From Shewanella sp. VB17 (GTDB lineage: Bacteria; Pseudomonadota; Gammaproteobacteria; Enterobacterales; Shewanellaceae): DNA of 32,000 bases. A program made the translations under genes and the position numbers. The stretch lies in the NCBI RefSeq assembly GCF_013248905.1, contig NZ_JABRVS010000001.1, forward strand, positions 2,927,273 through 2,959,272. The letters run 5' to 3'. Shown one piece after another: positions 2,852 through 24,124 of this stretch. Each line of letters opens with the position of its first letter. The first letter of the stretch is position 1. The notes beneath the pieces were generated by a model. That model saw only the letters and a program-made list of their open reading frames with translations. It made no database searches and was not told the origin of the DNA.

Positions 2852-2933
2852 GCGAAGTCGTCAAATGCACCAGATCTGAAAACCGGCATAGGTTTATCGC
2901 CCATCTAGGGTTTAAATCCCTATCTCTTCGCCA
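2852..2933 (+). other. tRNA-like fragment (T-arm + 3' acceptor strand + GCCA), probably a decayed tRNA or att remnant
   Basis: TAGGG-TTTAAAT-CCCTA (2906-2922) forms a 5-bp stem with a 7-nt T-loop-like loop. It is followed by exactly 7 nt (TCTCTTC), then G and CCA (2930-2933). The expected 5' acceptor strand (GAAGTCG at 2854-2860) pairs at only 4-5 positions, and no convincing anticodon arm was found. Confidence 0.3.
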
Positions 2934-3756: not shown

Positions 3757-3799
3757 TTATGATAACGTTTAATTAAGCTGTAAGAAGTGAGAGGGTAAT

Positions 3800-4617
3800 G
3801 TGCTTGTTGAAAAGTGGCTAGACATCGATGCTGATAAGCTTTATTGCTTGTCTACTGATATTGATGAGTCTCAAGAAACGTTAGTGCTAATTCATGGGCT
3901 GGGCGAATCGCATCTCTGTTTTGCGGACGCATTGGATTGGCTGCCGAATTACAACCTGATAATGTTTGATTTATGTGGTTATGGTTATTCTCCTGCTTCA
4001 GTGATATCCCACTCAACAGAAACTCAAGCAAAACGTATATTAACAGCTCTTGAGCAATTAAACATACACAAATGCTTTCTCTTATGGCACTCTTGGGGGG
4101 CGATACATCGACCTTAGTTTGTCAATACGATACGAAAGGTATAGTGCGTGGTTTGCTTAATGCTGAAGGTGGATTGCATGAAGAAAATATCATTTTATCT
4201 CAGATTATTGCCGAAAAATATTCAGAATTAAGTTGTGACGAGTTTTCAGAATGGATCAAAGGTGACGGTTTTTCAACTCGTTTTGCTATGTCTTGGAGCC
4301 ACGGAGCCGGTATCAAATACCTGTCGTCAGTTAGACGGTGTGAGCCCACAGTTCTTGGTCAGACTGCTAGTGAAATCTATGCCCAACATGCGACTCAAGA
4401 TATGCGCGGTGTTATCGGTTGGGGGAAAATATATGAAAACTTGTCTATCCCTAAAGTTTACTTCTGGGGGACGCAAAGTCTAAGAGGGTGTGATCGTGCG
4501 ATGGCATTTATTGCTACGTTAAATAATGTTTCGTTTGAGGGGGCAAACCACTGGGTACAACATAACCCTGCTACGTTTTACTCAGAAGTTGATAAATTTA
4601 TTACTAACATTTATTAA
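3800..4617 (+). pseudogene. alpha/beta-fold hydrolase interrupted by a frameshift in a G6 run
   Basis: ORFs 3800-4117 and 4072-4617 are two halves of one protein (HGLGES oxyanion region, nucleophile elbow HSWGG). The frame changes inside GGGGGG at 4095-4100; seven Gs would restore ...WHSWGGDTSTLVCQ... GTG start with GAGAGGG RBS. Confidence 0.7.
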
Positions 4618-4730
4618 TGGGACTGGTTGAGACTCACCATTGAAATTGATTCGCTCAAGCATACCATACAATGAAGGATAATCTGCTTCAACAGCGGCGT
4701 TAGGTCGCTTTCCCATTGTTCGTTTCAGCT

Positions 4731-4764
4731 TAAGACCCCCTTGCAATAATGCAAGGGGGTCTTA
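4731..4764 (+). terminator. rho-independent terminator-like hairpin
   Basis: 15-bp perfect stem TAAGACCCCCTTGCA / TGCAAGGGGGTCTTA with a 4-nt loop, followed by the T-rich TTGATTTT. Confidence 0.6.
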
Positions 4765-4800
4765 TTGATTTTACTTAATGTCTTAATTGAACTTCATTAT

Positions 4801-7800
4801 TTACGCAATTAATTCAACTTCTTTGCCATTAGTGTCCTTATTTAATTGCGCTGGAACACGAGGTTTACTGCCGATGAGCTTCTTTATATCTTCAATTGCT
4901 AAGTATAAACAAGGCATCAGTATTAAGGTGACCACGGTTGCAAACAGCACACCGAAGGCGAGGGAGGTCGCCATAGGGATCACCATTTTGGCTTGCATAC
5001 TGGTCTCTGTCATGATTGGCATTAAGCCGATGAAAGTGGTGAGTGATGTCAACATAATGGCTCTAAAGCGTCGACACCCCGCTTCAATCACTGCTGTTTT
5101 CATTACGATCCCCGCTTCCCTTGATTTGTTAATATGATCCACCATCACCAGAGAGTCATTGATGACGACTCCGGCTGCTGCGATGATGCCAAAGAGTGAC
5201 AATGCGCTGAGATCTATTCCCATGATCATATGACCCATAACAGAGCCTATAATACCAAATGGGATCACTGCCATGATCATCATAGGTTGAGAGTAAGATT
5301 TAAGCGGTATGGCCAACAAACTGTATATGATCAATAAGGAGATAATAAAGTCTCTTAATTGTGTCTTCGTGCTGTCAATTTGTTCTTGGATATTACCCGA
5401 CACTTCACTTTTTACTTTAGGATAGAGTGTTAATAATTGCGGTATAAAGTCATCGCGAATATCTTGAGCGAGTTTGAATGGCTCCGCTTGGGCGGCATCG
5501 ACAGAGGCCCAGACATTGATGGTGCGATTGCCATTTTCACGGCGAATATAACTGACTCCTTGTGTGACAGTGACATTGACGACGTCAGACAGAGGAACTT
5601 CAACGCCTTGGGGCGTGACTATCAATACATCAGAGACCTGAGCGATGGAGTTTCGTTGTGATTCTGGGTATCTGAGCATGACTTTTATTTCAGTCCCGTT
5701 ACGCAAAATTCTTTGTGCTTCAAGACCATAGAAGCTATTACTGACCTGAGAGGCAATATCAGCTAATGTAAGTCCTAAACCATAGGCTTGCGGTTTGAGT
5801 TGAAATTGTAATTCCTTCACACTAGATTGGCGGCTGTCGTTGATATCACTAACGCCTTTGAAGGTATTTAGCTTGTTTTTTAACGCGAGGGACGCAGCAA
5901 GTAATTGCGCTTCGTTCTTGCTTTCCAAGCGGAAGCTAATATCGCCATCATCACGCCCCCCGTCGAAGAGATTATCTTGAATTTCAAATGATTTTATTCC
6001 TGGGATCTGTGGTATAGCCTGACGCCAAAGTTCAGCTAATTGAAAAGTGTTCAGAGGTCTTATCTCTGGATCCACCAGTTTAGTCATGACTTTCGCTGAG
6101 GTGCGGCCTCCAAGTTCGACTTGCATGTCAGAGACCATGGCCTGATCATATTGCTCTTCAAGTTGTTTATCGACATCATAAATCGCTCTTTTGATCGCTA
6201 ATGCCGCCGTTAACGTGGCTTTTTCTGAGGCGTCGACATTCATCTCTATTTCGATTTGTGGGAAGTCATGGGGGATCTTGGGTTGACCGATAAAGCGAAC
6301 GAGACCACCTGCATAAAGGCCTGCACAGATAAGCATAAAACTGATAAAGACCATGATGGTGGTATAATGATATTTAACTGCTTTTTTGAGGGCAGGGCGA
6401 TAGACAGAGTTAATAAACAGGTGCAGAGTACGATCGACTCTATCTTGGATAGCATTGATAATATTTCTGAGCCAATCTAATGGGTTCTTTGAGCCTGGTT
6501 TGACGATGGTTTTTTGTTTCATTCTTGCTAAGTGGGCAGGCAAAATCAGCTTTGACTCTACCAATGAAAAAATAAGGCATAAAATAACGACAGTGCCTAT
6601 TGCTTTACCAAAAGCTGAGGTGGGTCCATCACTAAGGGTTAAAGGTGTAAAAGCGGCGATAGTGGTTAATACACCAAACGTGGCTGGTATAGCAACTTTC
6701 TTTACCCCGCGTATGACATTGTCTAAACTCTGACCATTTTTGTCACATTCATCATAGGCACTCTCTCCCATGACAATGGCGTCATCGACCACAATACCAA
6801 GGACCAATATAAAGGCAAACAGACTGATCACATTGACGGTGACATCTAACATGGGCATCGGCATCAATAGCAAGGCACCGAGGAAGCAAACTGGTAATCC
6901 CATCATGACCCAAAATGCTAATCGCACACGTAGGAAAAGTGCCAACATGATAAAGACTAAAATAGCCCCACTTTTCATGCTATCTAGCATGAGATCTAAC
7001 CGACCTTCGAGGTAATAGGACATATCTACCCAGGTTTCAAGTTTCAACCCTTCAGGTAAGATGTTCTGTTTTTTGGCAACGTACTTTTTCACGATATCAG
7101 CGACATCAGTCATGCTTTGATCGTTTGCAGCCCCGACAAAAAAAGTCACTGAGTTTTTGCCATTGAACTTAGAGTATTGAATGCCTTCCTCGAATCCATC
7201 AATGACAGTCGCAATATCTCCCAATAAGACATTGGTACCATCTTTTAAGGTAATTAACGGTAAATTTTCAAATTCATATCCGACATACGCTTGATTTTGG
7301 ACTCGCAAATTGATGTAACCCGTTTCTGCACGTATTTGTCCTGCAGACATGTTGCGTGAAAAGCCTTGTACCGCTTTAGCGACGTCGTTAAAATTCAGGC
7401 CAAATTCACGTAATTTATCTTTACTCACTTCAATGGCAATTTCATAATCCAGACCGCCATAGAAGTCTGTAATATTCACTGAAGGTAATTGCATCAACTC
7501 ATCGTGAATATTTTCGCCTAATTCTTTGAGCTGTCGGTGCGTTATATCACCATATAAGCTTATGTATAGCACTTCTTGTCGCAACTTAATACGCTCAACC
7601 TTAGGCAGCTCCATACCGTCTGGAAAGCTAGAAATGGAATCGATTTCAGATTTTATTTCATCCAGTACAACTTGTGGATCGTAGGAGTCTTCTATTCGAA
7701 AATACCCTGATGCTTGGCCTCGATTTGAATAAGTTATCACACGTTTAAGGCCTTGAACGCTTTCTAATGCTTCTTCAATTTTAATGGTGATCCCTTCTTC

Positions 7801-8034
7801 AACTTCTTGAGGAGCTGCACCAGGGTAGGAAGCATTAAATTCAATCCAGTTAATATCCACTTGTGGGAAAAACTGCTTTCGGATGGTATTTGCGGTTAGT
7901 AAGCCCCCTACAATGATAATGATCATTAATAAATTAGCGGCAACGCTATTACGAGCAAACCAAGCGATGATGCCGCTATTGACGTCGTCATGGGATAATG
8001 TTGATGATGAGTGGGGATTGATAGACTCAGACAT
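4801..8034 (-). CDS. RND efflux transporter permease (AcrB/AcrD/AcrF family)
   Basis: 1077 aa with a 12-TM RND layout and two large periplasmic loops. Typical motifs (VVDDAIVMGE, INDSLVMVD). Immediately downstream of an adaptor gene. Confidence 0.9.
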   Translation of the reverse strand: MSESINPHSSSTLSHDDVNSGIIAWFARNSVAANLLMIIIIVGGLLTANTIRKQFFPQVDINWIEFNASYPGAAPQEVEEGITIKIEEALESVQGLKRVITYSNRGQASGYFRIEDSYDPQVVLDEIKSEIDSISSFPDGMELPKVERIKLRQEVLYISLYGDITHRQLKELGENIHDELMQLPSVNITDFYGGLDYEIAIEVSKDKLREFGLNFNDVAKAVQGFSRNMSAGQIRAETGYINLRVQNQAYVGYEFENLPLITLKDGTNVLLGDIATVIDGFEEGIQYSKFNGKNSVTFFVGAANDQSMTDVADIVKKYVAKKQNILPEGLKLETWVDMSYYLEGRLDLMLDSMKSGAILVFIMLALFLRVRLAFWVMMGLPVCFLGALLLMPMPMLDVTVNVISLFAFILVLGIVVDDAIVMGESAYDECDKNGQSLDNVIRGVKKVAIPATFGVLTTIAAFTPLTLSDGPTSAFGKAIGTVVILCLIFSLVESKLILPAHLARMKQKTIVKPGSKNPLDWLRNIINAIQDRVDRTLHLFINSVYRPALKKAVKYHYTTIMVFISFMLICAGLYAGGLVRFIGQPKIPHDFPQIEIEMNVDASEKATLTAALAIKRAIYDVDKQLEEQYDQAMVSDMQVELGGRTSAKVMTKLVDPEIRPLNTFQLAELWRQAIPQIPGIKSFEIQDNLFDGGRDDGDISFRLESKNEAQLLAASLALKNKLNTFKGVSDINDSRQSSVKELQFQLKPQAYGLGLTLADIASQVSNSFYGLEAQRILRNGTEIKVMLRYPESQRNSIAQVSDVLIVTPQGVEVPLSDVVNVTVTQGVSYIRRENGNRTINVWASVDAAQAEPFKLAQDIRDDFIPQLLTLYPKVKSEVSGNIQEQIDSTKTQLRDFIISLLIIYSLLAIPLKSYSQPMMIMAVIPFGIIGSVMGHMIMGIDLSALSLFGIIAAAGVVINDSLVMVDHINKSREAGIVMKTAVIEAGCRRFRAIMLTSLTTFIGLMPIMTETSMQAKMVIPMATSLAFGVLFATVVTLILMPCLYLAIEDIKKLIGSKPRVPAQLNKDTNGKEVELIA

Positions 8035-8037
8035 GGC

Positions 8038-9234
8038 TTATTCCTTCTCTTCCATTGCAAGTTGAGTCTCTTTTTCTTCTGAGCCATCTTGCTGCAATAT
8101 TGTCTCATTAGGAAGCGCCAGCTGCATGCCTTCGATAGGGTAATCTAATGCAGATGTGATGATATTCATTCCCTGCTCTAATCCCGCTGAAATGACAACA
8201 TTTGCACCAGATTGACGGATCACTGTGACTGGTTTATACCTGAGTTTATTCTCTTTATCTAATACTGCAATTTTCCCATCTACGATGAGATGCCTTGGCA
8301 ACACGGTGACTTCCCCGGCGTTATTACCGGTGATTTTGGCTGTCACGTAGGTACCATACCTTAACTCATTATTATTATCTTTAAGGCCATATGGGTCTGC
8401 GACTTCAGCCACTAGATAAGTCATACGACTGGTACTGTCAATGACTCCCTCGCTGCGAACAATACGGCCTGGCCACTGTTGATTTTTACCCCCCACAGTG
8501 GCACTCATTTCGACCATTGCCCCTTTTCCTTTATGGGTGAGGTATCGAAGTTCTTTATCGGCTAAGGGGAGCCGTATCTCTGCTTGTGCTGTGCTTAACA
8601 CTTTGCCTACAGCACTGCCTTGACTGACATAAGAGCCTAACCCAACGTCTCTACTGCCAATCAATGCGTCGTAAGGCGCCCTAATGATGGTTCGCTCAAC
8701 GTTGCGTAGCGCTCGTTTTAACCCCGCTTCAGATGAATTGAGTTTTGCGATTTCATGGGCAAGTTGTGGTTTACGTAAACTCAGTTCGGTGGGTAAGCCA
8801 TCTTTAATGTTTTTCCATTCTTCCTCAGCGACTTTTCCTTGAGCGCGTTCTTGAACTAACGCCGCCTTGGCTGAGGCTAAGTTTGCTTTTGCATCAATGA
8901 GATCAGCGTCATAGTCACTGGGGTCTATTCTAGCAATGATATCCCCTTTACTGACAAACCCGCCTGAGACAAAGTTGTTAGATAAAAATATGATCTCGCC
9001 ATTGACTTGAGCGACGAGTTCAGTTTCATATTTAGGCTTGACTATTCCGTATGATCCGACCGAAAAAGTCATAGGTGCCATTTCAACTGGCTTGATAGCC
9101 ACTAAAGGAGTGTTATCTATCTGGGGTTTTTCTTCTAATGGTTTTTTTAGTGCGGATATGGCTAAAAAACCACCAGCACCGATTAGTAATACAACTATAG
9201 GGAGTATTATTTGTTTTTTGGTCGCCACGTACAC
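8038..9234 (-). CDS. RND efflux periplasmic adaptor (membrane fusion protein, HlyD/AcrA family)
   Basis: 398 aa with an N-terminal TM anchor and coiled-coil/lipoyl/beta-barrel type sequence. The stop lies 3 nt from the RND permease start. Confidence 0.85.
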   Translation of the reverse strand: MYVATKKQIILPIVVLLIGAGGFLAISALKKPLEEKPQIDNTPLVAIKPVEMAPMTFSVGSYGIVKPKYETELVAQVNGEIIFLSNNFVSGGFVSKGDIIARIDPSDYDADLIDAKANLASAKAALVQERAQGKVAEEEWKNIKDGLPTELSLRKPQLAHEIAKLNSSEAGLKRALRNVERTIIRAPYDALIGSRDVGLGSYVSQGSAVGKVLSTAQAEIRLPLADKELRYLTHKGKGAMVEMSATVGGKNQQWPGRIVRSEGVIDSTSRMTYLVAEVADPYGLKDNNNELRYGTYVTAKITGNNAGEVTVLPRHLIVDGKIAVLDKENKLRYKPVTVIRQSGANVVISAGLEQGMNIITSALDYPIEGMQLALPNETILQQDGSEEKETQLAMEEKE

Positions 9235-13895: not shown

Positions 13896-13971
13896 GCGAC
13901 ATTAGCTCAGTTGGTAGAGCGATACCTTGCCAAGGTATAGGTCATCGGTTCGAACCCGATATGTCGCTCCA
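13896..13971 (+). tRNA. glyW: tRNA-Gly (GCC)
   Basis: 76 nt with a cloverleaf. Anticodon loop CTTGCCAA, GGTTCGAACCC T-arm, encoded CCA. Close to the E. coli tRNA-Gly(GCC) sequence. Confidence 0.95.
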
Positions 13972-13987
13972 AATTAAACAATGAGTT

Positions 13988-14061
13988 GGCGCGATGGCAG
14001 AATGGCTATGCTGCGGATTGCAAATCCGTCCATCTCGGTTCGACTCCGGGTCGCGCCTCCA
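13988..14061 (+). tRNA. cysT: tRNA-Cys (GCA)
   Basis: 74 nt: GGCGCG...GGATTGCAAATCC...GGTTCGACTCCGG...CGCGCCTCCA. Matches the E. coli tRNA-Cys pattern. Confidence 0.95.
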
Positions 14062-14144
14062 TATTTAGATATTGATGAGTTTTCTCTCGTTAGAGAAAAC
14101 AGTATTAACTACCGATAATACGTATTGTCAATATCAACGAGTTT

Positions 14145-14230
14145 GCCCGAGTGGTGGAATCGGTAGACACAAGGGATTTAAAATCCCTCGCTGAATAAGC
14201 GTGCCGGTTCAAGTCCGGCCTCGGGTACCA
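14145..14230 (+). tRNA. leuZ: tRNA-Leu (TAA)
   Basis: 86 nt, class II with a long variable arm. GGGATTTAAAATCCC anticodon arm. Near-identical 5' half to E. coli leuZ. Confidence 0.95.
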
Positions 14231-18240: not shown

Positions 18241-19200
18241 TTAAGGTGTATAGGTATTCACCACTGCTATTTTATGCTCATCTTTTACTCTTTTAATGCT
18301 ACTGGCCGCATCGAGATCAATATGGCCATTGTTTGACACATCGACAAAGTCGAAGGCTGGGAGCACCGATTCTGCCACTTCCCCTTTTAATGGCGCATTA
18401 GGATCACGAGTTAACGACCTAAAATCAAACTGTTCTCTGTCTACCCCTTGTGAAGGTGATGTATTTTGCATCGCCGTAAAAATAGACTCTATCCGTCCAG
18501 GGTGTTCAATATCCCATTGATTAAGCATGTCTTTAACTGAAGCTCGCTTTAAATTTTCTTGAGAACCACATAAATTACATGGAATAATAGGAAATGATTT
18601 TAATTCAGCATATTCGGCAATTTCTTTCTCACGAGAATAAGCCAAGGGACGGATCACTATATTTGCGCCATCATCTGAGAGTAGCTTAGGTGGCATGGCT
18701 TTTTGTTTACCCGCAAAAAACATATTCAAGAACAGGGTTTCAATAATGTCATCCCTATGATGCCCCAAAGCAATTTTTGTTGCCCCTATTTTTTGTGCAA
18801 AGCCATATAAGGTCCCACGACGTAATCGAGAGCATAGAGAACAGGTTTTTTGACCTTCGGGGATTTTATCTTTAACGATTGAATAAGTGTCTTTTTCTAA
18901 GATATGATAAGCGACACCCAAGTTATCGAGGTAAGCAGGAAGAATGTGTTCAGGAAAACCAGGCTGTTTTTGATCTAAATTAACGGCCACAATCTCAAAT
19001 TTTATGGGGGCTCGTTGTTGTAAGTCCAGTAGTATATCCAGCATGACATAACTATCTTTTCCGCCAGAAAGGCAGCACATGATCCGATCACCTTCTTCAA
19101 TCATATTATAATCAGAGATGGCCTTACCGACTTCGCTTTTAATCTTCTTTTGAAGTTTTTTTATGCGAGTGATTTGCTGAGTTGTTTGACCGGTCGACAT
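18241..19200 (-). CDS. ttcA: tRNA 2-thiocytidine(32) synthetase
   Basis: 319 aa, collinear with E. coli TtcA ([21 protein letters not shown]-loop, [21 protein letters not shown] cysteine motifs). Confidence 0.92.
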
Positions 19201-19280: not shown

Positions 19281-20213
19281 TTAACTTTGTTCTAAAGGAG
19301 ATTTATACCCGTCAGGCTTAATGGCTAATAAATCACAGTTAATGCTATCGATCACATGTTCTGCTGTATTTCCTATCAATGCTGCAGAAAATCCAGTTCT
19401 GCCTACGGTGCCTAAAATGACCAATTCCGCATCTAATTGCATAGCAAGATCGGGGATCACATCTTCAGGTAAACCTTCTTTTATATGACAGCAATCTTGA
19501 CTAATGCCCAATGTTAAGGCGAGATCGAATACCCTTTGCTCATGTTGGAGCCTAATTGTTTGACTATAAGCATGAGCATCAAAATCGGGCAATTCGATAG
19601 CAAGATTAATCGGCGTACCTGGGTAACCGTTGACAAGATGAACTTGAGCATCAAACTGTTTAGCAAGCGCTTTTGCACACTCAATAATTTTATGATTGAG
19701 TGTAAGATGATCTTTATCCTCTGATCCAACATTAATAGCACATAATATTTTACCTGCTACAGGCCAGTCATGTTCTTTAACTAACAACACTGGGGCAGGG
19801 GATTTACGCATCAAATGCCAATCTGTTGGGGTAAAAATAACCGACTTGAGTTTATCATGCTCATGGGTCCCTTTGATAATGAGATCAAAATTGCCAGAAA
19901 TAGCATGCTGAATAATACTCTCAAAGGGGCGGTTGTGCCAAATGACTTCACTTTTAATGCTGATCTCTGGACAAGCATACTGCTCTAGCACCTCATCAAG
20001 CCAGGCTTGTCGTTGAGCAATGACGCCTTTTCTCATGGATTCACGCTCTTGGCCTGATAAAATCGAGGTCATTTCATAAGAAAAATCATAAATGGAAAGG
20101 AATACAGTTATGCTCGCTTGATTGTGGGTGGCGAGCTCAATTGCTCTTGCGAGTGCGGGTTGTGGATCACTGGTTGGATCAATGACAACTAACAGATTTT
20201 TATATTCTTTCAT
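19281..20213 (-). CDS. uspE: universal stress protein E (tandem Usp domains)
   Basis: 310 aa with two Usp domains (GTHEHDKL..., LGTVGRTGFSAALIGNTAEHV). Sits next to ttcA, and in related genomes next to fnr. Confidence 0.85.
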   Translation of the reverse strand: MKEYKNLLVVIDPTSDPQPALARAIELATHNQASITVFLSIYDFSYEMTSILSGQERESMRKGVIAQRQAWLDEVLEQYACPEISIKSEVIWHNRPFESIIQHAISGNFDLIIKGTHEHDKLKSVIFTPTDWHLMRKSPAPVLLVKEHDWPVAGKILCAINVGSEDKDHLTLNHKIIECAKALAKQFDAQVHLVNGYPGTPINLAIELPDFDAHAYSQTIRLQHEQRVFDLALTLGISQDCCHIKEGLPEDVIPDLAMQLDAELVILGTVGRTGFSAALIGNTAEHVIDSINCDLLAIKPDGYKSPLEQS

Positions 20214-20356
20214 ATTTTTGTCCCTTACTCATTTTATACCATTAATAATGGCGCATATCGCGTAAAATACATTGTTTTAGATCAAGTTAGCCCATATTGC
20301 TTAACTTGTTATACCATTGTTTTAAAATAAGTAAATTAATTATTGTCTCATTAATA

Positions 20357-21274
20357 TTAATTGATCACATACCAATGTTTACGAGGTATGAGCACCGGAT
20401 GTTTAATCGGTGTAGGCTCACGATATTGATAGTTCTTTAACGCATTAATAGTTACAGGTGTATTAAACAATATTATAGGCAATGTAGCATTAGTGCTTAA
20501 CATTCGTTTGCTGCGTGTATCACCAGTATTCTTACACCATATATCGATTAAAGGTTGAACTCGTGCAAATCTTATTTCAGTTATTTTTGCACTTGAAGAA
20601 ACTCGACTCATTAATTCTCTTTCTTTTTCGTAACGGGCTATGAGTTCTTCTTTATTTAAACCAAAGCATTCGAAGTTTTTTGCATTGATGCTGGATTTTA
20701 AAATATCAGCGGCAACATCATGTTTGACGTGATGTTGCATTTTTTTAGCGCGCCAATAAAAATTAACAGATGATATTTCATCGACGATTGTATCCATATA
20801 TTTCATTTTTCTGACGGCACTAAGAAGTACTAGATTAGGGATAAGTTCATGTAAGTTTTCATGGATGAGTTGTCGTTTCGCAAAACCCACTTTAATCGAA
20901 TCACTAAAAATGACTCGACGTTGGTTAACTTCATTGTTTAACTCGATGAATTCATCTTTCGATTTTTTAGGTAAAACAATTAATCCAGGAAAACGCTTTG
21001 CTAAATAGGTATTTTCATTGAATGCGTCAATTTTCAGTTGAGTTATTGCTTGCCGAGCATAACGCTTTGTCTGCTCGGTTATTTGCGTAAGCTCTTCCAT
21101 GACTTTAATATTGCTAGGAGTGGTATTTTCTTCACCTATTTTATTGGCGGGCAACGTGTACATACAAATATTAATCATATTGTCACAGACAAAAGTGGCT
21201 AGCTCAGAAAGGGCCTCTGCCAGTTGCAAGTGGTTGGTTTTTATATACGAATTCAGGGTAGCTCTATTGGTCAT
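20357..21274 (-). CDS. tus: DNA replication terminus site-binding protein Tus (divergent homologue)
   Basis: 305 aa vs 309 aa for E. coli Tus. Collinear blocks by eye: YTLPANK/FSLPEVK, KRFPGLIVL/VRLPGVLCY, HELIPNLVLLSAVRKM/HRHLPGLITLNAYRTL, EIRFARVQPLIDIWCK/KIKRPVKVQPIARVWYK, LPIILFN/PLIALIN, and C-terminus VLIPRKHWYVIN/LIIPRLHLYVAD. Confidence 0.85.
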   Translation of the reverse strand: MTNRATLNSYIKTNHLQLAEALSELATFVCDNMINICMYTLPANKIGEENTTPSNIKVMEELTQITEQTKRYARQAITQLKIDAFNENTYLAKRFPGLIVLPKKSKDEFIELNNEVNQRRVIFSDSIKVGFAKRQLIHENLHELIPNLVLLSAVRKMKYMDTIVDEISSVNFYWRAKKMQHHVKHDVAADILKSSINAKNFECFGLNKEELIARYEKERELMSRVSSSAKITEIRFARVQPLIDIWCKNTGDTRSKRMLSTNATLPIILFNTPVTINALKNYQYREPTPIKHPVLIPRKHWYVIN

Positions 21275-21303
21275 ATTAATTACGGCATACAGGCTAAAAA
21301 TTA

Positions 21304-21332
21304 AGTATCTACTTGATAAATAAAGCTGTCAA
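21304..21332 (-). promoter_or_regulatory. candidate tus promoter
   Basis: The minus strand reads TTGACA (21332-21327), 17-nt spacer, GATACT (21309-21304), about 30 nt upstream of the tus ATG. Confidence 0.4.
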
Positions 21333-21333
21333 A

Positions 21334-21354
21334 CGTTAATTTTCAAAATTAACG
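21334..21354. promoter_or_regulatory. 21-bp perfect palindrome immediately upstream of the tus -35 (operator candidate)
   Basis: CGTTAATTTT-C-AAAATTAACG: 10-bp arms around a single central base. Confidence 0.4.
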
Positions 21355-21496
21355 ATTAAATAACATTTAATGAGCATCCTAGCGATATCCTCGAAAATGA
21401 ACTCATCTACAGCATCTATATTACCTTTATTGGATGTTTTTCAAGCTACCGCAAAGTAAATATAACCAACTTATCCTCTCACTAAACCCAAAGCAT

Positions 21497-21512
21497 TTTT
21501 TTATGGTGACAC
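21497..21512. repeat. left copy of the 16-nt repeat TTTTTTATGGTG[A/T]CAC
   Basis: TTTTTTATGGTGACAC. Identical to the right copy except one base. Contains GTGAC (a matS-type half-site). Confidence 0.6.
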
Positions 21513-21539
21513 AGTTTAAATAGACTATTGATAAACTGC

Positions 21540-21577
21540 TCTTTATGCAACATAATTAGAGTTATGTTGCATAAAGA
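21540..21577. other. dif/lox-like palindromic candidate recombination site (16-6-16)
   Basis: TCTTTATGCAACATAA TTAGAG TTATGTTGCATAAAGA. All 16 arm positions pair and the spacer is asymmetric. The inner 11-nt arm TTATGTTGCAT matches the E. coli dif XerD arm TTATGTTAAAT at 9/11. The site can also be parsed as a 13-8-13 lox-type site. It lies in the divergent tus / recombinase-operon intergenic region. Confidence 0.6.
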
Positions 21578-21602
21578 CATAATGCCCGATGAGGCTATTG
21601 TA

Positions 21603-21618
21603 TTTTTTATGGTGTCAC
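21603..21618. repeat. right copy of the 16-nt repeat TTTTTTATGGTG[A/T]CAC
   Basis: TTTTTTATGGTGTCAC, 106 bp (about 10 helical turns) from the left copy. TGGTGTCACCA is itself an 11-bp palindrome containing GTCAC. Confidence 0.6.
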
Positions 21619-21666
21619 CATGATTGAGTGCTTGGCAAAATAATAGTATGAGATATAGGAATAGAA

Positions 21667-22215
21667 TTGTTAATAACACAAGAAAGAGTAGAACAAGATG
21701 ACAATTACACTCCGCCTAAATGGATTTATGATAACGGACGTACTGGGCGAGGTTATAACCTCAGAATGTTATCAATCACAGAGATAAAAATTTCTGCTGA
21801 TTTATTAAAAACATGGTTATCAAACATTAACATTTCAGATAATCCGTCATGGTATAAACCTTTTGCAAGTTCTACAGAATATCAATCCCATCAATCCTAT
21901 TTTTTACGTTTACTTAGAACGATTAAACAATGTGAAATTGAAGGTGAAGGTATATCAATACATGAAATGAACACCTTAAACCAAGAACTAAGCCGCATTT
22001 TTTCTGATGAGGGCTGGCGACACATGAAGCAAAAATTTAGTCAACAAGCAAAACGGAAGCGTAAAGCAAGACCAGAGATCTCGTCTTCACTACTTAGCAA
22101 GCTTCACCATGTTAAGACGACTCAAGGTTTTACTAGCCTTGATGAGGTCATTGATGAATTATTGTCTTTTTACCATGATAATCAAAATTCAAATGGTGCA
22201 TGTTGTGAAAAATAA
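21667..22215 (+). CDS. hypothetical DNA-binding protein with C-terminal ribbon-helix-helix (MatP-like linker/RHH)
   Basis: 182 aa. TTG start with AGGA 6 nt upstream. Basic patch AKRKRKAR followed by a beta-alpha-alpha pattern: PEISSS-LLSKLHHVKTTQG-FTSLDEVIDELLSFY. GWRHMKQ...KRKRK resembles MatP GWIDKHM..RMKQTIRARRKRH (E. coli sequence recalled from memory). Confidence 0.6.
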   Translation: MLITQERVEQDDNYTPPKWIYDNGRTGRGYNLRMLSITEIKISADLLKTWLSNINISDNPSWYKPFASSTEYQSHQSYFLRLLRTIKQCEIEGEGISIHEMNTLNQELSRIFSDEGWRHMKQKFSQQAKRKRKARPEISSSLLSKLHHVKTTQGFTSLDEVIDELLSFYHDNQNSNGACCEK

Positions 22216-23323
22216 TACTGAACTGACGCCATCTTATGGCGATTTACCGCAATCCATCGCACCAACATCAATTCAAGAATCACTGTTAGACACACGTAGT
22301 TTACTTGAAAAACGCCTCAAATCACAGTTGGCTTTATCCTCAGATCTGGTTGATCAAGATTTAGTACGATTACTCATTAAACATTTACTGGCAGACTTTG
22401 CGAAAAATGATAGCGGTTTATCAGATAACACCATTAAGACATTGTTTATCTATTGGCAAAGTTTTGAATTGTGGTGTCACAAACATCAATGTACTTCACT
22501 ACCAGCATCGGCGACCACATTTGTCGACTACATGAATGATAGAAAGTCAGCGGTAAAAATGAATACCTTAAGCCAATATCGCTGGGCCGTAAGTAAAATT
22601 CACTTAGCTGCCGGATTACCTTCACCCTGTCATACTCAAAAATCAATTGATGTAGTGGGCGGGATCAGAAAACAAAAAATCAGATCAAGCGAACTTGTCA
22701 CACAAGCAAGTCCATTTCGCAGTTCACACTGTGATGCGCTAATTGATTTGTGGATTGGATCTGGAACACCTTTGCAATATAGAAATTTAGCGATAATGGT
22801 AACGGCGTATGAAACGATGATGCGTGAAAGTGAGTTAGCACGAATTGAGTTAGCGCATATAAGTTATCAATCAGATGGTCGTGCGACTTTGCTTATTCCT
22901 TTCACAAAAACAAATATATCTGGTGATCCCGATACCGTCATGTTGAGTCGACAATGTGTTAAAATTATAAATAATTATTTGTCTCATACGGTGAATAAGT
23001 CTAATTTTCTATTTAAGAAAATGACACGAAATGGCAAGCCAGCACAACACAACGGTCCTATTTCTCGTTACACTGTCGACAGGGTTTTTAAACGTGCCTT
23101 TAATGATTTATGTACAAAAAATATAAATTTAACTCATGAAATAGCACCATGGTCTGGGCACAGTGCTCGAGTTGGAGCTTGTCAGGATCTATTAAGTGCT
23201 GGCTATTCTATTCTCGAAGTTCAGCAAGCGGGTCGCTGGGCATCAAGTGAAATGGTTTATCGTTATGGTAGAAATATATTAGCAAAAGAATCTGCAATGG
23301 CCAAAGCACGTTGGGGACGCTAA
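22109..23323 (+). CDS. Cre-family tyrosine site-specific recombinase
   Basis: WSGHSARVGACQDLLSAGYSILEVQQAGRWASSEMVYRYGRN vs P1 Cre WSGHSARVGAARDMARAGVSIPEIMQAGGWTNVNIVMNYIRN. RNLAIMVTAYETMMRESELARI vs Cre RNLAFLGIAYNTLLRIAEIARI. Catalytic R239 K267 H351 R354 W377 Y386 (maximal-ORF numbering). The true start is probably internal: ATG 22154 has GAGG 7 nt upstream, and ATG 22193 is the other candidate. Overlaps the upstream gene. Confidence 0.85.
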   Translation: MLRRLKVLLALMRSLMNYCLFTMIIKIQMVHVVKNNTELTPSYGDLPQSIAPTSIQESLLDTRSLLEKRLKSQLALSSDLVDQDLVRLLIKHLLADFAKNDSGLSDNTIKTLFIYWQSFELWCHKHQCTSLPASATTFVDYMNDRKSAVKMNTLSQYRWAVSKIHLAAGLPSPCHTQKSIDVVGGIRKQKIRSSELVTQASPFRSSHCDALIDLWIGSGTPLQYRNLAIMVTAYETMMRESELARIELAHISYQSDGRATLLIPFTKTNISGDPDTVMLSRQCVKIINNYLSHTVNKSNFLFKKMTRNGKPAQHNGPISRYTVDRVFKRAFNDLCTKNINLTHEIAPWSGHSARVGACQDLLSAGYSILEVQQAGRWASSEMVYRYGRNILAKESAMAKARWGR

Positions 23324-23328
23324 CAATA

Positions 23329-23365
23329 AATACAGATGCAGCATCGATCCTTTTGCATCTGTATT
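23329..23365. terminator. bidirectional terminator between the recombinase gene and fnr
   Basis: AATACAGATGCA / TGCATCTGTATT 12-bp stem with a 13-nt loop. Confidence 0.6.
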
Positions 23366-23374
23366 AACGGTTTA

Positions 23375-24124
23375 TTATCGAAGAGTCGTGCTACTTTGAG
23401 CAAGTTTATTAAGTTCACTAAAATTAATAATTGTGATGTATTTACCTTTCACTTCAATTAATTCCGCCTTTTTCAACCGGCTGATTAAGCGGCTAATCGT
23501 TTCAGCAGTTAATCCTAAGTAATTAGCAATATCTCCTCGAGTCATGGTCAATCTAAATTCTTTTGATGAAAAGCCACAGCTACCAAATCGTACGGCTAAA
23601 TTACTAATAAATGCCGCTAATTTCTCTTCGGCATTTTTTTTACTTAAGAGTAAAATCATGTCTTGATCACTGCGGATCTCATTACTCATCAAACGCATTA
23701 TTTGTTGTCTTAGTTTTGGTATTGTCCCACTGATGTCAGTAAGTGTTGAATATGGAATTTCACAGACCATTGATGTTTCAAGTGCTTGGGCAAAATTTGT
23801 ATGCTGTTGAGAATAAATAGCATCGAAACCCACGACATCACCCGCAAGATGAAACCCCGTAATTTGTTCATCACCTTGTTCTGTAATAGTAAAGCTTTTA
23901 ATCGTACCAGAGCGAATAGCAAAAAGAGAGCTTAGCTTATCCCCTGATTTAAAAATTTGCTCACCTTTTTGCAATGGCTTTTTTCTTTCAATGATATCGT
24001 CGAGGCGGTCGAGTTCAACACTATTAAGCGTAAAAGGCATACATAAAGCACCCATATTACAATTGTGACAATGAATGGCAGATCCAGAATGAATTGAACC
24101 ACGACTGTTATTACTGTCTGTCAT
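23375..24124 (-). CDS. fnr: fumarate/nitrate reduction transcriptional regulator (oxygen-sensing CRP/FNR family)
   Basis: 249 aa, collinear with E. coli FNR ([16 protein letters not shown] cysteine cluster, [52 protein letters not shown]). Confidence 0.95.

What the first reader, a model, noticed from the sequence alone, without database searches (positions are those of the whole stretch)
20214..23374. Candidate terminus toolkit cassette (tus + RHH protein + Cre-family recombinase + dif/lox-like palindrome) between uspE and fnr
uspE and fnr are immediate neighbours in E. coli K-12, and ttcA-uspE-fnr-cco is a housekeeping block here, yet 3.16 kb separate uspE and fnr in this window. The insert has four parts. 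(i) A clear but divergent Tus homologue on the minus strand. (ii) A 392-bp divergent control region with a perfect 16-6-16 palindrome whose arms match the XerD arm of dif at 9/11, bracketed by two in-phase 16-nt repeats. (iii) A 182-aa protein with a C-terminal ribbon-helix-helix and a MatP-like basic linker. (iv) An overlapping gene for a Cre-type tyrosine recombinase with all six catalytic residues. I saw no phage, plasmid, transposase or toxin genes, no flanking direct repeats, and no obvious compositional jump. Fork arrest, Ter-region DNA binding and site-specific dimer resolution are the classic terminus activities. Candidate genes for all three, plus a candidate site, in one cassette suggests a self-contained and possibly portable terminus module. 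Its single-recombinase resolution system would resemble XerS/difSL or XerH/difH, where the recombinase gene sits beside its site, but with a Cre-family enzyme. I am not aware of a description of this arrangement.
Basis: partly seen in the sequence, partly recalled or inferred. Interest (0 to 1): 0.9.

Follow-up and report, generated by a model that had tools for sequence, protein, structure and literature searches.

The report
Plasmid Tus/Cre-like module captured chromosomally
A 3-kb piece of a Shewanella conjugative-plasmid backbone has been inserted between two housekeeping genes near the chromosome terminus of a single strain: it carries a Tus fork-blocking protein with its own Ter-like site, plus a Cre-type recombinase with its lox-like site and a small partner protein. 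It is probably not the cell's own terminus machinery, but on the plasmids these parts form what looks like an undescribed replication-fork trap around the plasmid's dimer-resolution site.

Summary
uspE and fnr are 85-575 bp apart in 78 of 80 related genomes, but 3.16 kb apart here (Shewanella sp. VB17). The insert encodes a divergent Tus, a 182-aa protein and a Cre-family recombinase, around a perfect palindrome.

The interpretation needs revising. The same tus / site / small gene / recombinase module lies next to traF-traH-traG and mobI on Shewanella MOBH (pAQU/IncA/C-like) plasmids. No other Shewanella examined has it at uspE-fnr.

The palindrome is a lox-type 13-8-13 site. Its closest tested relative is SCre/SloxP from the Shewanella ANA-3 plasmid. 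It has conserved GGTGNCACC motifs at -54 and +52.

A Ter-like motif (GTATGCCGTAA; 9-10 of the 12 core bases of E. coli TerB) sits directly upstream of tus in eight loci of three Tus lineages. On four plasmids or plasmid-like contigs a second copy lies beyond the recombinase operon; in the three where tus is adjacent it is inverted. That geometry is a fork trap enclosing the resolution site. VB17 kept only the tus-proximal copy.

uspE-fnr is terminus-proximal in Shewanella: canonical dif lies 4-5 kb from fnr in two species. Chromosomal use is therefore possible but unshown. I could not check xerCD or dif in VB17.

The parts
20336..23323 (.). Inserted plasmid-derived cassette (approximate limits). 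It runs from about 20 bp beyond the tus stop codon to the recombinase stop codon.
   Evidence: DNA homology to the plasmid loci (66-72% identity) spans 20357-23314 only. The native uspE promoter aligns with other Shewanella up to about 20335. GC is 35.9% against 39.5-41.4% in the flanks.
20357..21274 (-). [quoted passage not shown]
   Evidence: Pfam PF05472, E 2.2e-22. 72% identical to the Tus of plasmid-like contig L004, 60-61% to L007/L009, 52% to S. aestuarii pPN3F2_1. N- and C-termini intact.
21276..21296 (-). Ter-like site (minus strand: CCTGTATGCCGTAATTAAT) ending 4-5 nt before the tus ATG. It is the predicted Tus binding and autoregulation site. By analogy with E. coli TerB it should block forks moving towards lower coordinates.
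   Evidence: An exact GTATGCCGTAA occurs only here in the window. The motif is conserved directly upstream of tus in L004, L007, L009, L001, L098, L130 and the second tus of pPN3F2_1. It has the same strand and position relative to tus as E. coli TerB.
21304..21332 (-). Predicted tus promoter (-35 TTGACA, 17 nt, -10 GATACT), immediately upstream of the Ter-like site.
   Evidence: 10/12 consensus match. An equivalent TTGAC..(17)..-10 element is visible in the tus-upstream sequences of L004, L007, L009, L001 and L130. Consensus match only; function inferred.
21497..21512 (+). Left accessory motif (TTTTTTATGGTGACAC; core GGTGACAC), 54 bp from the core centre.
   Evidence: GGTGNCAC(C) lies at exactly -54 in VB17, L004, L001, L007 and L009, while the surrounding sequence has diverged.
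21540..21577 (+). Recombination core site. It is a perfect 16-6-16 palindrome. Read as lox-type 13-8-13 it is TTTATGCAACATA (21542-21554), ATTAGAGT (21555-21562), TATGTTGCATAAA (21563-21575).
   Evidence: The same arms occur upstream of the small gene in L004, L001, L007, L009 and L120. Different arms with the same geometry occur with more distant recombinases in L002, L006 and L099, the last being VloxP-like. The tested SloxP of the ANA-3 plasmid has the same 13-8-13 form, and its spacer ACTGTAAT is identical to that of the S. aestuarii site.
21528..21556 (+). Predicted promoter of the small-gene/recombinase operon (-35 TTGATA, -10 CATAAT). The -10 lies inside the left arm of the core site.
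   Evidence: 10/12 consensus match. Autoregulation by recombinase binding is inferred.
21603..21619 (+). Right accessory motif (TTTTTTATGGTGTCACC; palindromic core GGTGTCACC), 52 bp from the core centre.
   Evidence: Same offset (+52) in five loci. 106 bp from the left motif.
21667..22215 (+). 182-aa partner protein (HQQ94_12605): a helical bundle plus a C-terminal strand-helix-helix (RHH-like) domain. It belongs to a rare family with no name in the libraries searched.
   Evidence: Always immediately upstream of, and overlapping, the Cre-like recombinase gene, including SCre of the ANA-3 plasmid. 34 cluster representatives among 1.84 billion. No Pfam, PHROG or NCBIfam family. AF2 pLDDT 89. Weak RHH signals.
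22193..23323 (+). Cre-family tyrosine recombinase (ATG at 22193; a 372-aa annotated product matches the GTG at 22205).
   Evidence: Full-length match to Cre, E 1.5e-36, with R-K-H-R-W-Y conserved. 68-72% identical to plasmid homologues and 39% to the ANA-3 plasmid SCre.
19281..20335 (-). uspE and its native promoter region (left flank; not part of the insert).
   Evidence: uspE is 85% identical to that of S. nanhaiensis. About 120 bp of promoter is conserved with other Shewanella.
23322..24124 (-). fnr and the hairpin just after its stop codon (23322-23372), which abuts the recombinase stop codon (right flank).
   Evidence: Inverted repeat I6. S. atlantica has a hairpin at the same position after fnr (my reading).

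Best explanation
The 3.0-kb insert is a captured fragment of a Shewanella MOBH (pAQU/IncA/C-like) conjugative-plasmid backbone: the plasmid's replication-termination and multimer-resolution module. It has two units.

(a) Fork arrest. A plasmid-type tus is preceded by its own promoter and a Ter-like site, GTATGCCGTAA. Tus is predicted to bind this site, repress its own gene and arrest forks in one direction, as at E. coli TerB/tus.

(b) Resolution. An operon encodes a small RHH-like protein and a Cre-family recombinase. Its promoter overlaps a lox-type 13-8-13 core site. The core is flanked symmetrically, at -54 and +52, by GGTGNCACC motifs that I assign to the small protein.

On three plasmid-like contigs a second, inverted Ter-like site lies just beyond the recombinase operon. 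Both sites face so as to block forks leaving the module. Replication should therefore finish inside a 2.4-4.5 kb trap that contains the resolution site, and multimers would then be resolved by the Cre-like enzyme.

In VB17 only tus, one Ter-like site and the complete resolution unit were inserted, trimmed to the stop codons, into the uspE-fnr intergenic region. That region is terminus-proximal in the genus. The insertion is specific to this lineage. Whether it does anything for the chromosome is unknown.

Shown: homology, synteny, conservation and orientation of the sites, and uniqueness of the insertion. Inferred: Tus binding to the motif, fork arrest, which protein binds the accessory motifs, autoregulation, and the mechanism of insertion.
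For: Origin
- The closest recombinase and Tus homologues are on plasmids or plasmid-like contigs.
- The order TraF-TraH-TraG_N, small ORFs, Tus, then 0-3 intervening genes, then small gene, recombinase and DUF2913 (absent in L004) is seen in L004/L005, L007/L008, L009 and pPN3F2_1. MobI accompanies it in L007/L008, L009 and elsewhere on pPN3F2_1.
- uspE and fnr are adjacent in 78 of 80 genomes, and none of them has the cassette.
- Homology ends exactly at the two stop codons.

Recombination site
- The arms are conserved with close recombinases and different with distant ones.
- L099 carries a VloxP-like site. SCre/SloxP, experimentally validated (PMC3082901), comes from the same kind of plasmid, with a small-protein homologue overlapping SCre.
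- The accessory motifs lie at identical offsets in five loci.

Ter
- The motif lies directly upstream of tus in eight loci.
- Its two variable bases differ between Tus lineages: GCCG, GCGG and GAGG.
- In the S. xiamenensis plasmid the same GCGG variant sits both at tus and next to the recombinase operon, about 70 kb apart.
- Inverted second copies occur in L004, L007 and L009.
- Orientation and position match TerB/tus in E. coli K-12.
- 9-10 of the 12 core bases match TerB (my count).

Literature
- tus is mobile and plasmid-borne outside three clades (PMC6549158).
- tus is annotated in pAQU1, IncA/C and IncT plasmids (PMC4036041).
Against: - Nothing here was tested biochemically.
- The sampled plasmids are only 66-72% identical in DNA, so the donor is unknown and the age of the insertion cannot be set.
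- No direct repeats, transposase or second site explain how a three-gene fragment was inserted so cleanly.
- The second Ter-like site is absent from VB17 and was not found in the rearranged S. aestuarii plasmid.
- SCre works without the small protein in heterologous cells, so the small protein's role is open.
- All three ORFs and all sites are intact. That is also what active chromosomal use would predict.
Confidence: 0.8

Rival explanations
1. Domesticated auxiliary terminus module. The captured cassette is active on the VB17 chromosome. Tus with its single Ter-like site acts as a polar barrier at or near the terminus. The Cre-like enzyme resolves chromosome dimers at the lox-like site, alongside XerCD/dif.
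For: - The locus is terminus-proximal in the genus: dif is 4-5 kb from fnr in two species, and the locus lies at 52% of the DAU334 chromosome record.
- Plus-strand third-position GC skew averages about +0.17 for genes up to 18.2 kb and about +0.04 after that. Third-position T-A skew turns negative on the right, and cumulative GC skew peaks at about 17.5-23.5 kb.
- All ORFs and sites are intact.
- The insertion preserves the uspE promoter and the fnr hairpin.
- From my own knowledge (Leslie and Sherratt 1995, not in the library searched): Cre/loxP placed at the dif position can replace dif in E. coli.
Against: - Only this genome has it among about 45 Shewanella species.
- There is one Ter-like site only, so no trap.
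- Near a terminus either orientation of a Ter site is tolerated, so orientation is uninformative.
- The skew change is weak and does not clearly change sign within 32 kb.
- Intactness may simply reflect a recent arrival.
Confidence: 0.13
2. The cassette is the chromosome's own self-contained terminus system. Its single Cre-type recombinase and palindrome replace XerCD/dif, the 182-aa protein plays a MatP-like role, and Tus provides the fork trap.
For: - No canonical dif and no matP in the 32-kb window.
- The arm matches the XerD arm of dif at 9/11 (sequence).
- Identical arms lie next to Xer-like recombinase genes in unrelated metagenome contigs.
- The local skew change is near the cassette.
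Against: - Plasmid origin and uniqueness.
- Other Shewanella have a canonical dif, and 43 of about 45 also have none within 7 kb of uspE. Its absence from this window is therefore expected.
- The recombinase fails the Xer equivalog thresholds (20-34 bits vs 220-335).
- The 182-aa protein has no MatP Pfam match. It is tied to the recombinase even on plasmids and in loci without tus.
- There is a single Ter-like site only.
Confidence: 0.03
3. The palindrome is not the Cre-like enzyme's site. It is either a head-to-head pair of Ter sites for Tus, or a site for host Xer recombinases (plasmid cer/psi-like or IMEX-like).
For: - The arm contains ATGTTG, as does the E. coli Ter core.
- 9/11 match to the XerD arm.
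- The same arms lie next to Xer-like recombinases in contigs L109, L112, L117 and L118.
Against: - The palindrome travels with the small-gene/recombinase pair in loci with no tus nearby (L002, L006).
- Its arms change with the Cre-like enzyme's divergence: L002, L006, L099 (VloxP-like) and the tested SloxP.
- A separate, better Ter-like motif exists at the position expected from E. coli.
- The left half of the palindrome matches the XerC arm at only 5/11 (my count).
Confidence: 0.04

Closest known systems
SCre/SloxP (Shewanella sp. ANA-3 plasmid 1) and the other Cre-like plasmid/phage systems: Cre/loxP, VCre/VloxP, Vika/vox, Dre/rox
   Same: - Cre-family enzyme: 39% identical to SCre and about 30% to Cre, with all six catalytic residues.
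- 13-8-13 inverted-repeat site on the same replicon near the gene.
- Spacer of the A-N6-T type: SloxP ACTGTAAT, VB17 ACTCTAAT on the opposite strand.
- A small-protein homologue overlaps SCre as well.
   Different: - The arms are different (TTTATGCAACATA).
- Conserved GGTGNCACC motifs flank the core at -54 and +52.
- In the loci closest to VB17 the system lies next to tus and is bracketed by Ter-like sites.
- None of this is mentioned in the passages of the SCre and Vika papers that I read, which treat the enzymes as engineering tools.
- Here the system is on a chromosome.
E. coli Tus/TerB (autoregulated tus with a vicinal Ter) and the chromosomal fork trap around dif
   Same: - Pfam Ter family protein.
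- A Ter-like motif on the same strand as tus, just before its ATG, downstream of a promoter.
- On plasmids, inverted sites enclose a dimer-resolution site, as the inner Ter sites enclose dif in E. coli (established knowledge).
   Different: - The protein matches E. coli Tus only weakly (E 4.9e-7) and scores far below the equivalog cut-offs.
- The motif has CC/CG/AG where Ter has TT, and it lies closer to the ATG.
- The trap is 2.4-4.5 kb wide rather than hundreds of kb.
- The enclosed site is lox-type, not XerCD/dif.
- VB17 has one site only.
'Mobile' plasmid-borne tus genes (Galli et al. 2019, PMC6549158; pAQU1 CDS191 'ter', IncA/C and IncT plasmids, Nonaka et al. 2012, PMC4036041)
   Same: - The same class of tus: plasmid-borne, scattered across chromosomes, with no conserved chromosomal context.
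   Different: - In the passages I read, those papers report only the gene. They do not describe its Ter sites, their pairing, or the linkage to a recombinase module.
- VB17 is a concrete case of such a tus landing in a terminus-proximal chromosomal site.
Single-recombinase Xer systems (XerS/difSL, XerH/difH, archaeal XerA/dif)
   Same: - One recombinase encoded beside a nearly palindromic site.
- The inner arm bases CATAA/TTATG resemble dif arms.
   Different: - The enzyme is Cre-family, not Xer: 20-34 bits against cut-offs of 220-335.
- The site has lox geometry.
- It is not conserved in the lineage.
- FtsK dependence is unknown.
MatP/matS
   Same: - A helical bundle followed by a basic linker and a strand-helix-helix. 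hhalign aligns residues 131-171 to the RHH region of MatP, residues 89-128.
   Different: - The hhalign E-value is only 0.01, with a reported probability of 4%.
- No Pfam MatP hit.
- MatP was not retrieved by the profile search of PDB sequences, nor among the 50 Foldseek matches shown.
- No C-terminal coiled coil.
- The gene is genetically tied to the recombinase, not to a Ter macrodomain.

Membership tests
Cre/lox-type tyrosine recombinase systems | Cre-like sequence over the full length, with the catalytic R-K-H-R-(H/W)-Y residues | tested here: met
   E 1.5e-36 to Cre over residues 25-337. R, K, H, R, W and Y all align.
Cre/lox-type tyrosine recombinase systems | 13-8-13 inverted-repeat target near the gene on the same replicon | tested here: met
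   TTTATGCAACATA-ATTAGAGT-TATGTTGCATAAA lies about 110 bp upstream of the operon's first gene, about 630 bp before the recombinase start. The same geometry holds for SloxP and for the VloxP-like site in L099.
Cre/lox-type tyrosine recombinase systems | The enzyme recombines two copies of the site | not testable with these tools
   Shown experimentally only for the 39%-identical SCre on SloxP (PMC3082901).
Tus/Ter | Protein belongs to the Tus family (PF05472) | tested here: met
   79.9 bits against a gathering score of 22. The NCBIfam equivalog cut-offs are not reached (55.6 vs 323; 35.7 vs 178), so this is a divergent subfamily.
Tus/Ter | Ter site adjacent to and upstream of tus, on the same strand | tested here: met
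   GTATGCCGTAA at 21280-21290. It is conserved upstream of tus in eight loci, and 9-10 of the 12 core bases match TerB.
Tus/Ter | Oppositely oriented Ter sites forming a trap | tested here: not met
   VB17's window has one site only. The feature is met on plasmid-like contigs L004, L007 and L009, and by my orientation reading on the S. xiamenensis plasmid.
Tus/Ter | 'Resident' tus: conserved genomic context and a phylogeny that follows the species tree (Galli et al. 2019) | tested here: not met
   Absent from uspE-fnr in all the other genomes sampled, including about 45 Shewanella. The closest relatives are on plasmids.
Tus/Ter | Polar arrest of replication forks | not testable with these tools
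   Polarity is inferred from the orientation of TerB relative to tus and from established knowledge that TerB blocks clockwise forks.
Xer/dif chromosome dimer resolution | Recombinase of the XerC/XerD/XerS/XerH/XerA families | tested here: not met
   XerA 33.6 bits (cut-off 220), XerD 23 (329.6), XerC 20.9 (335).
Xer/dif chromosome dimer resolution | dif-type site with XerC and XerD arms around a 6-bp centre, conserved at the terminus of related genomes | tested here: not met
   9/11 to the XerD arm but 5/11 to the XerC arm, and 13 mismatches in 28 to E. coli dif (my count). No match within 8 mismatches in the window. The site is absent from other Shewanella at this locus.
Xer/dif chromosome dimer resolution | The genome lacks another dif/XerCD system (needed for the replacement claim) | not testable with these tools
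   The VB17 genome was not in the searchable collections: it was not among the genome-contig hits, and only a 21-kb Logan contig was found.
MatP | MatP / MatP_C Pfam domains | tested here: not met
   No hit at E <= 1 for five family members. hhalign E 0.01-0.026 over the RHH region only.
Ribbon-helix-helix DNA-binding proteins | C-terminal strand-helix-helix with a basic N-terminal flank | tested here: inconclusive
   The AF2 model (pLDDT 89) has an extended segment at 133-139, then helices 140-153 and 158-176. The best profile hit in the PDB is protein 56B, 2KEL (the SvtR RHH regulator, by my recollection), E 0.13. Foldseek gives partial matches to TCP strand-helix-helix domains, probability 0.7-0.87 but E > 1.

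The most novel reading that the evidence does not exclude
The captured module is in use on the VB17 chromosome. Tus bound to its Ter-like site would set a polar barrier at the replication terminus, and the Cre-type enzyme would resolve chromosome dimers at the lox-like site, beside or instead of XerCD/dif. That would be a fourth, ongoing domestication of a plasmid tus. It would also be a natural counterpart of the laboratory replacement of dif by Cre/loxP.
Probability: 0.12. Interest if true: 0.85.

Novelty: new variant of a known kind. Interest (0 to 1): 0.55.

Why it matters
There are two points of interest.

1. The plasmid architecture. A plasmid-encoded Tus has its own Ter-like sites arranged as a 2-4 kb fork trap around a lox-type resolution site, with a dedicated small protein and symmetric accessory motifs. 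I found no description of this in the papers I searched and read. It would link two plasmid-stability functions that are usually treated separately: ending replication cleanly, and resolving multimers. It also supplies candidate Ter sequences for the many 'mobile' tus genes. Tus-like genes occur in 1,320 plasmid records, most of them from Klebsiella.

2. The VB17 insertion. Galli et al. proposed that chromosomal tus was domesticated from plasmids. The VB17 insertion is a concrete example of the step they envisaged: a plasmid tus with one Ter site, landed in a terminus-proximal chromosomal site. It is directly testable.

In practical terms, the recombinase and its site are another orthogonal Cre-like pair.

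Tried and rejected
- MatP membership of the 182-aa protein. No Pfam hit; hhalign E only 0.01-0.026. Rejected as a family claim.
- The palindrome as a double Ter site. Rejected because it travels with the recombinase in loci without tus, and its arms change with the recombinase.
- Canonical dif in the window. None within 8 of 28 mismatches.
- KOPS (GGGNAGGG). Only two copies, both on the + strand at 6390 and 19793. Too few to mean anything.
- matP in the window. Not found by tblastn.
- Single-sequence AF2 of the small protein. Useless, pLDDT 42. The run on a 26-sequence alignment worked.
- Mapping Ter-like sites and skew on the complete S. aestuarii plasmid pPN3F2_1. The plasmid is rearranged, with a duplicated tus-traG block and many IS elements. 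No second inverted site was found, and the skew was uninformative for this question.
- Klebsiella plasmid tus. No such motif directly upstream; the gene sits within a run of same-strand genes.
- Word-indexed homologue searches found only the query itself for the small protein and six relatives for Tus.
- Exact look-ups of P0001, P0002 and P0115 found nothing. My exact look-up of Tus used coordinates that dropped the start codon, so its negative result is meaningless.
- The VB17 whole genome could not be reached. The skew switch, xerC/xerD, dif and any further Ter-like sites elsewhere therefore remain untested.
- The junctions show no direct repeats, second site or transposase. The insertion mechanism is unexplained.

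Full report
1. WHAT IS THERE

The window comes from the Shewanella sp. VB17 chromosome. The recombinase is 100% identical to a VB17 protein on a 5.16-Mb contig, and the 182-aa protein is HQQ94_12605.

The gene order is ttcA (18241-19200, -), uspE (19281-20213, -), a 305-aa ORF (20357-21274, -), a 392-bp gap, a 182-aa ORF (21667-22215, +), an overlapping 372-376-aa ORF (to 23323, +), fnr (23375-24124, -), and then the ccoS/ccoI/ccoNOQP region.

- The 305-aa protein is a Tus-family protein: Pfam Ter, E 2.2e-22. It is divergent, scoring far below the NCBIfam equivalog cut-offs.
- The long ORF is a Cre-family recombinase. It aligns with Cre from residue 25 to 337 at E 1.5e-36. My reading of that alignment shows R, K, H, R, W and Y all conserved.
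- The gap holds a perfect 16-6-16 palindrome at 21540-21577, with none in 100 shuffles. It also holds two 16-nt direct repeats 106 bp apart.

2. IT IS AN INSERTION, AND ONLY HERE

I scanned one genome per species with UspE and took the 80 best loci: about 45 Shewanella, plus Ferrimonas, Colwellia, Pseudoalteromonas and others.

- In 78 of them fnr and uspE are 85-575 bp apart. The other two have a contig end or no fnr hit.
- Only VB17's own read assembly (L010) has the 3164-bp gap.
- None of the 80 has tus, the small gene or the recombinase nearby.

Alignment of the uspE upstream region shows that native promoter sequence is retained up to about 20335. The hairpin after fnr (23322-23372) sits where S. 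atlantica also has one. The foreign DNA is therefore about 20336-23323. It has 35.9% GC, against 39.5% and 41.4% in the flanks. The rest of the window is housekeeping: fabA, a Lon-like protease, an RND pump, two gap genes and tRNAs.

3. WHERE IT COMES FROM

tblastn finds relatives of the recombinase in 4,235 plasmid records and relatives of Tus in 1,320.

The closest relatives of both proteins lie together in these loci:
- a 52-kb metagenome scaffold (L004: Tus 72%, recombinase 70%);
- a 130-kb contig of Shewanella sp. UCD-KL12 (L007: 60% / 71%);
- a 45-kb contig (L009: 61% / 72%);
- the 231-kb S. aestuarii plasmid pPN3F2_1 (L001: 52% / 68%).

The order is the same each time: TraF-TraH-TraG_N, two or three small ORFs, Tus on one strand, then 0-3 intervening genes, then the small gene, recombinase and (except in L004) DUF2913 on the other strand. 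MobI accompanies this block in L007/L008 and L009. The complete plasmid also carries MobI(A/C), a MobH relaxase and an F-type transfer set. This is the pAQU/IncA/C-like group, where a 'ter' (Tus-like) gene was annotated as early as pAQU1 (PMC4036041).

DNA identity between VB17 and these loci is only 66-72%, and it stops exactly at the tus and recombinase stop codons. The donor has therefore not been sampled, and the fragment was trimmed very tightly.

Galli et al. 2019 classed tus genes outside Enterobacterales, Pseudoalteromonas chromosome 2 and Aeromonadales as 'mobile', often plasmid-borne. They proposed that chromosomal tus was domesticated from plasmids (PMC6549158). VB17's gene fits the 'mobile' class.

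4. THE PALINDROME IS A LOX-TYPE SITE OF THE CRE-LIKE ENZYME

The same arms (ATGCAACATAA ... TTATGTTGCAT) lie upstream of the small gene in L004, L001, L007, L009 and a metagenome contig, L120.

More distant recombinases have palindromes of the same geometry but with other arms:
- S. xiamenensis plasmid (L002, 40% identity): ACTTGACATAA-N6-TTATGTCAAGT.
- A 2.6-Mb MAG contig (L006, 44%): GGTTGATATAA-N6-TTATATCAACC.
- V. navarrensis plasmid (L099, 42%): AATTTCTGAGA-ACTGTAAT-TCTCAGAAATT. By my recollection of the published sequence, this is nearly VloxP.

L002 and L006 have no tus nearby, so the site belongs to the recombinase unit and not to Tus.

The tested relative is SCre/SloxP of the Shewanella ANA-3 plasmid. 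SloxM1 is CTCGTGTCCGATA ACTGTAAT TATCGGACACGAG, a 13-8-13 site (PMC3082901). I located SloxP on that plasmid, with a homologue of the small protein (30% identical, E 3e-17) overlapping SCre.

Read the same way, the VB17 site is TTTATGCAACATA / ATTAGAGT / TATGTTGCATAAA. The S. aestuarii spacer is ACTGTAAT, identical to SloxP's.

The apparent 6-bp centre arises because the outer bases of the 8-bp spacer (A...T) are themselves symmetric. From established knowledge, Cre cleaves 6 bp apart inside its 8-bp spacer.

The 9/11 match to the XerD arm of dif is real, but the other arm matches XerC at only 5/11. The enzyme also fails every Xer model.

5. ACCESSORY MOTIFS AND THE SMALL PROTEIN

Its position is fixed at -54 and +52 bp from the core centre in VB17, L004, L001, L007 and L009. 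The sequence between these elements has diverged (alignment A1). The S. xiamenensis site has a related motif, ATGGTGG(T/A)(A/G)CCAT, at -62, +45 and +119.

The small protein is found only as the upstream, overlapping partner of these recombinases.
- Its family is rare: 34 representatives among 1.84 billion.
- It matches no Pfam, NCBIfam or PHROG family.
- With a 26-sequence alignment, AlphaFold gives a confident model (pLDDT 89): a helical bundle followed by an extended segment (133-139) and two helices.
- Weak, independent signals place an RHH-like fold at that C-terminus. The family profile's best PDB hit is protein 56B (2KEL, which I recall as the RHH regulator SvtR), E 0.13. hhalign aligns it to the RHH of MatP at E 0.01. 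Foldseek gives partial matches to strand-helix-helix TCP domains at probability 0.7-0.87 but E > 1.

I infer that this protein binds the GGTGNCACC motifs. It would then either impose a preference for resolution or regulate the divergent promoters. SCre works without it in heterologous cells, so it is not needed for catalysis. A promoter-like element has its -10 (CATAAT, 21551-21556) inside the left arm of the core, which suggests that the recombinase represses its own operon. This is inference.

6. A TER-LIKE SITE, AND ON PLASMIDS A FORK TRAP

Directly before the tus start codon VB17 has CCTGTATGCCGTAATTAAT-ATG. The motif is conserved at the same place in every Shewanella plasmid-type tus I looked at:

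| Locus | Sequence before the tus start codon |
|---|---|
| L004 | TTGACAGTATGCCGTAGCAGAC-ATG |
| L007 | TTGACAGTATGCCGTAACACAT-ATG |
| L009 | TTGACACTATGCCGTAACAGAT-ATG |
| S. aestuarii, first tus copy | TTGACAGTATGAGGTAACATAG-TTG |
| S. aestuarii, second tus copy | TTGACAGTATGAGGTGACATAG-TTG |
| S. xiamenensis | GGGTCAGTATGCGGTAGTGTCA-ATG |
| S. algae | TAGTCAGTATGCGGTAACAGAT-ATG |

In E. coli K-12, TerB (AATAAGTATGTTGTAACTAAAGT) lies on the same strand as tus, 11 nt before its ATG. Aligned on GTATG, 9-10 of the 12 core bases (GTATGTTGTAAC) are shared. The difference is TT changed to CC, CG or AG, and that pair of bases differs between Tus lineages. A promoter-like TTGACA-17-GATACT sits just upstream, so autoregulation as at TerB/tus is likely.

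A second copy lies just beyond the recombinase/DUF2913 operon:
- L004, + strand, 9453;
- L007, - strand, 5525;
- L009, - strand, 4658;
- S. xiamenensis plasmid, L002, + strand, 8942. This copy has the same GCGG variant and the same extended flank (AAAGGGTCAGTATGCGGTA) as the copy at that plasmid's tus, about 70 kb away.

A 10-mer is expected about 0.04 times per 20-kb locus, so these recurrences at homologous positions are not chance.

In L004, L007 and L009 the second copy is inverted relative to the first. TerB blocks clockwise forks (established knowledge) and tus is on the + strand. A site read 5'-GTATG..GTAA-3' should therefore block forks travelling in that direction. Applied here, both plasmid sites block forks leaving the module and admit forks entering it. 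That is the geometry of a fork trap, 2.4-4.5 kb wide, enclosing the lox-type site and its operon. By my orientation reading the S. xiamenensis pair faces the same way, with about 71 kb of inserted resistance DNA between the two sites.

I found no description of this arrangement in the papers I searched and read. The likely logic is that a plasmid which ends replication cleanly avoids over-replication, and that finishing at the resolution site puts the two sister copies of the site together when they are needed. This is inferred. From my own knowledge, loss of Ter/Tus destabilises plasmid R1 and promotes multimers (Krabbe et al. 1997, not in the library searched).

VB17 has only the tus-proximal site. 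There is no other match in 32 kb beyond chance.

7. DOES IT SERVE THE CHROMOSOME?

The locus is terminus-proximal in the genus.
- A canonical dif (GCGCACAATGTATATTATGTTAAAT) lies 4-5 kb from fnr in S. mangrovi and S. electrica.
- The locus is at 2.25 of 4.34 Mb in the complete DAU334 chromosome record.
- In the window, plus-strand third-position GC skew averages about +0.17 for genes up to 18.2 kb and about +0.04 beyond. Third-position T-A skew becomes negative on the right, and cumulative skew peaks at 17.5-23.5 kb.

This is compatible with a skew change near the cassette, but it is not proof from 32 kb.

The predicted polarity of the single Ter-like site is to block forks moving towards lower coordinates. 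That would be harmless at or to the left of the terminus. Near a terminus either orientation is tolerated, so this says little.

There is no dif or matP in the window, but most Shewanella also have no dif within 7 kb of uspE. I could not reach the rest of the VB17 genome, so xerC, xerD, dif and any further Ter-like sites remain unchecked.

Given that the cassette is confined to one lineage, I rate active chromosomal use at about 0.13 and replacement of XerCD/dif at about 0.03.

8. UNEXPLAINED

- How was a three-gene fragment inserted so precisely, with no repeats, no second site and no transposase?
- A scan of metagenome contigs for the exact arms found 26 contigs unrelated to the module. Their GC ranges from 0.28 to 0.60 and every spacer is different. 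Four of them carry mutually homologous Xer-like (not Cre-like) recombinases within 12-500 bp of the palindrome, and five more carry more distant tyrosine recombinases within about 2.5 kb. Why the same 11-bp arms recur with a different recombinase family is unknown. It leaves a small possibility that Xer-type enzymes also recognise the VB17 site.

9. VERDICT

However, the cassette is a captured plasmid module, not the chromosome's own terminus toolkit.
- The recombinase and its site are a new member of the known Cre-like plasmid systems.
- Plasmid tus is already known at the annotation level.
- What appears new is the plasmid Ter-like sites, their pairing as a small fork trap around the resolution site, the fixed accessory motifs with a dedicated RHH-like protein, and the capture of half of this module in a terminus-proximal chromosomal site.

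Noticed in passing
metagenome loci L101-L128 (e.g. L112:827-854 with a recombinase gene at 866-1783; L109:3917-3944 with a gene at 3987-4871): The exact arms ATGCAACATAA-N6-TTATGTTGCAT occur in 26 contigs unrelated to the module (GC 0.28-0.60, every spacer different). Four carry mutually homologous Xer-like recombinases (41-48% identical) within 12-500 bp of the palindrome. Five more carry more distant tyrosine recombinases within about 2.5 kb. This may be the core site of an uncharacterised Xer-like family or element.
   Followed up: partly
L044:1972 (-) and L045:1045 (-): A canonical dif (TCGCACAATGTATATTATGTTAAAT / GCGCACAATGTATATTATGTTAAAT) lies 4-5 kb from fnr in S. electrica and S. mangrovi. 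It is not within 7 kb of uspE in the other ~43 Shewanella loci, so the distance from dif to this locus varies within the genus.
   Followed up: partly
L006:7280-9149 (2.6-Mb MAG contig): A second chromosomal copy of the small-gene/recombinase pair with its own palindrome (GGTTGATATAA-N6-TTATATCAACC) lies between hrpA and an outer-membrane protein gene. It has no tus and no GGTGNCACC motifs.
   Followed up: partly
window 3800-4617: Two overlapping ORFs (3800-4117 and 4072-4617) read like one alpha/beta-hydrolase gene split by a frameshift (LVLIHGLGESH motif in the first). This is possibly a pseudogene or a sequencing error.
   Followed up: no
window 2668-3800: About 1.1 kb upstream of the Lon-like protease gene has no ORF longer than 57 aa and no Rfam match. 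In E. coli this neighbourhood (fabA and the ycbZ Lon-like gene) holds matP, by my recollection, but tblastn finds no matP here.
   Followed up: partly
window 13896-14227: A cluster of three tRNA genes lies between a gap-like gene and an aminotransferase gene.
   Followed up: no
NZ_CP050314.1 (pPN3F2_1) 122-131 kb and 168-176 kb: The block of tus, two small ORFs and traG is duplicated on this plasmid, each copy with its Ter-like motif. The copies are separated by a nar (nitrate reductase) cluster and IS elements. The plasmid also carries three iscB genes.
   Followed up: partly
L129 (Klebsiella variicola pKv8917) 4956-8725: A tus gene lies 1.7 kb from a Cre-like recombinase (27% identical to VB17's) and close to RepB on an IncFIB megaplasmid. 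The tus/Cre-like linkage may therefore extend to the many Klebsiella plasmids that carry tus. No GTATG..GTAA motif was found there.
   Followed up: partly
L131:1745-1778 vs 5421-7098 (Shewanella ANA-3 plasmid): The validated SloxP site lies 3.6 kb from SCre, with four genes inserted between them. The region between site and operon (and between tus and site in L007/L009) seems to be an insertion hot spot.
   Followed up: no
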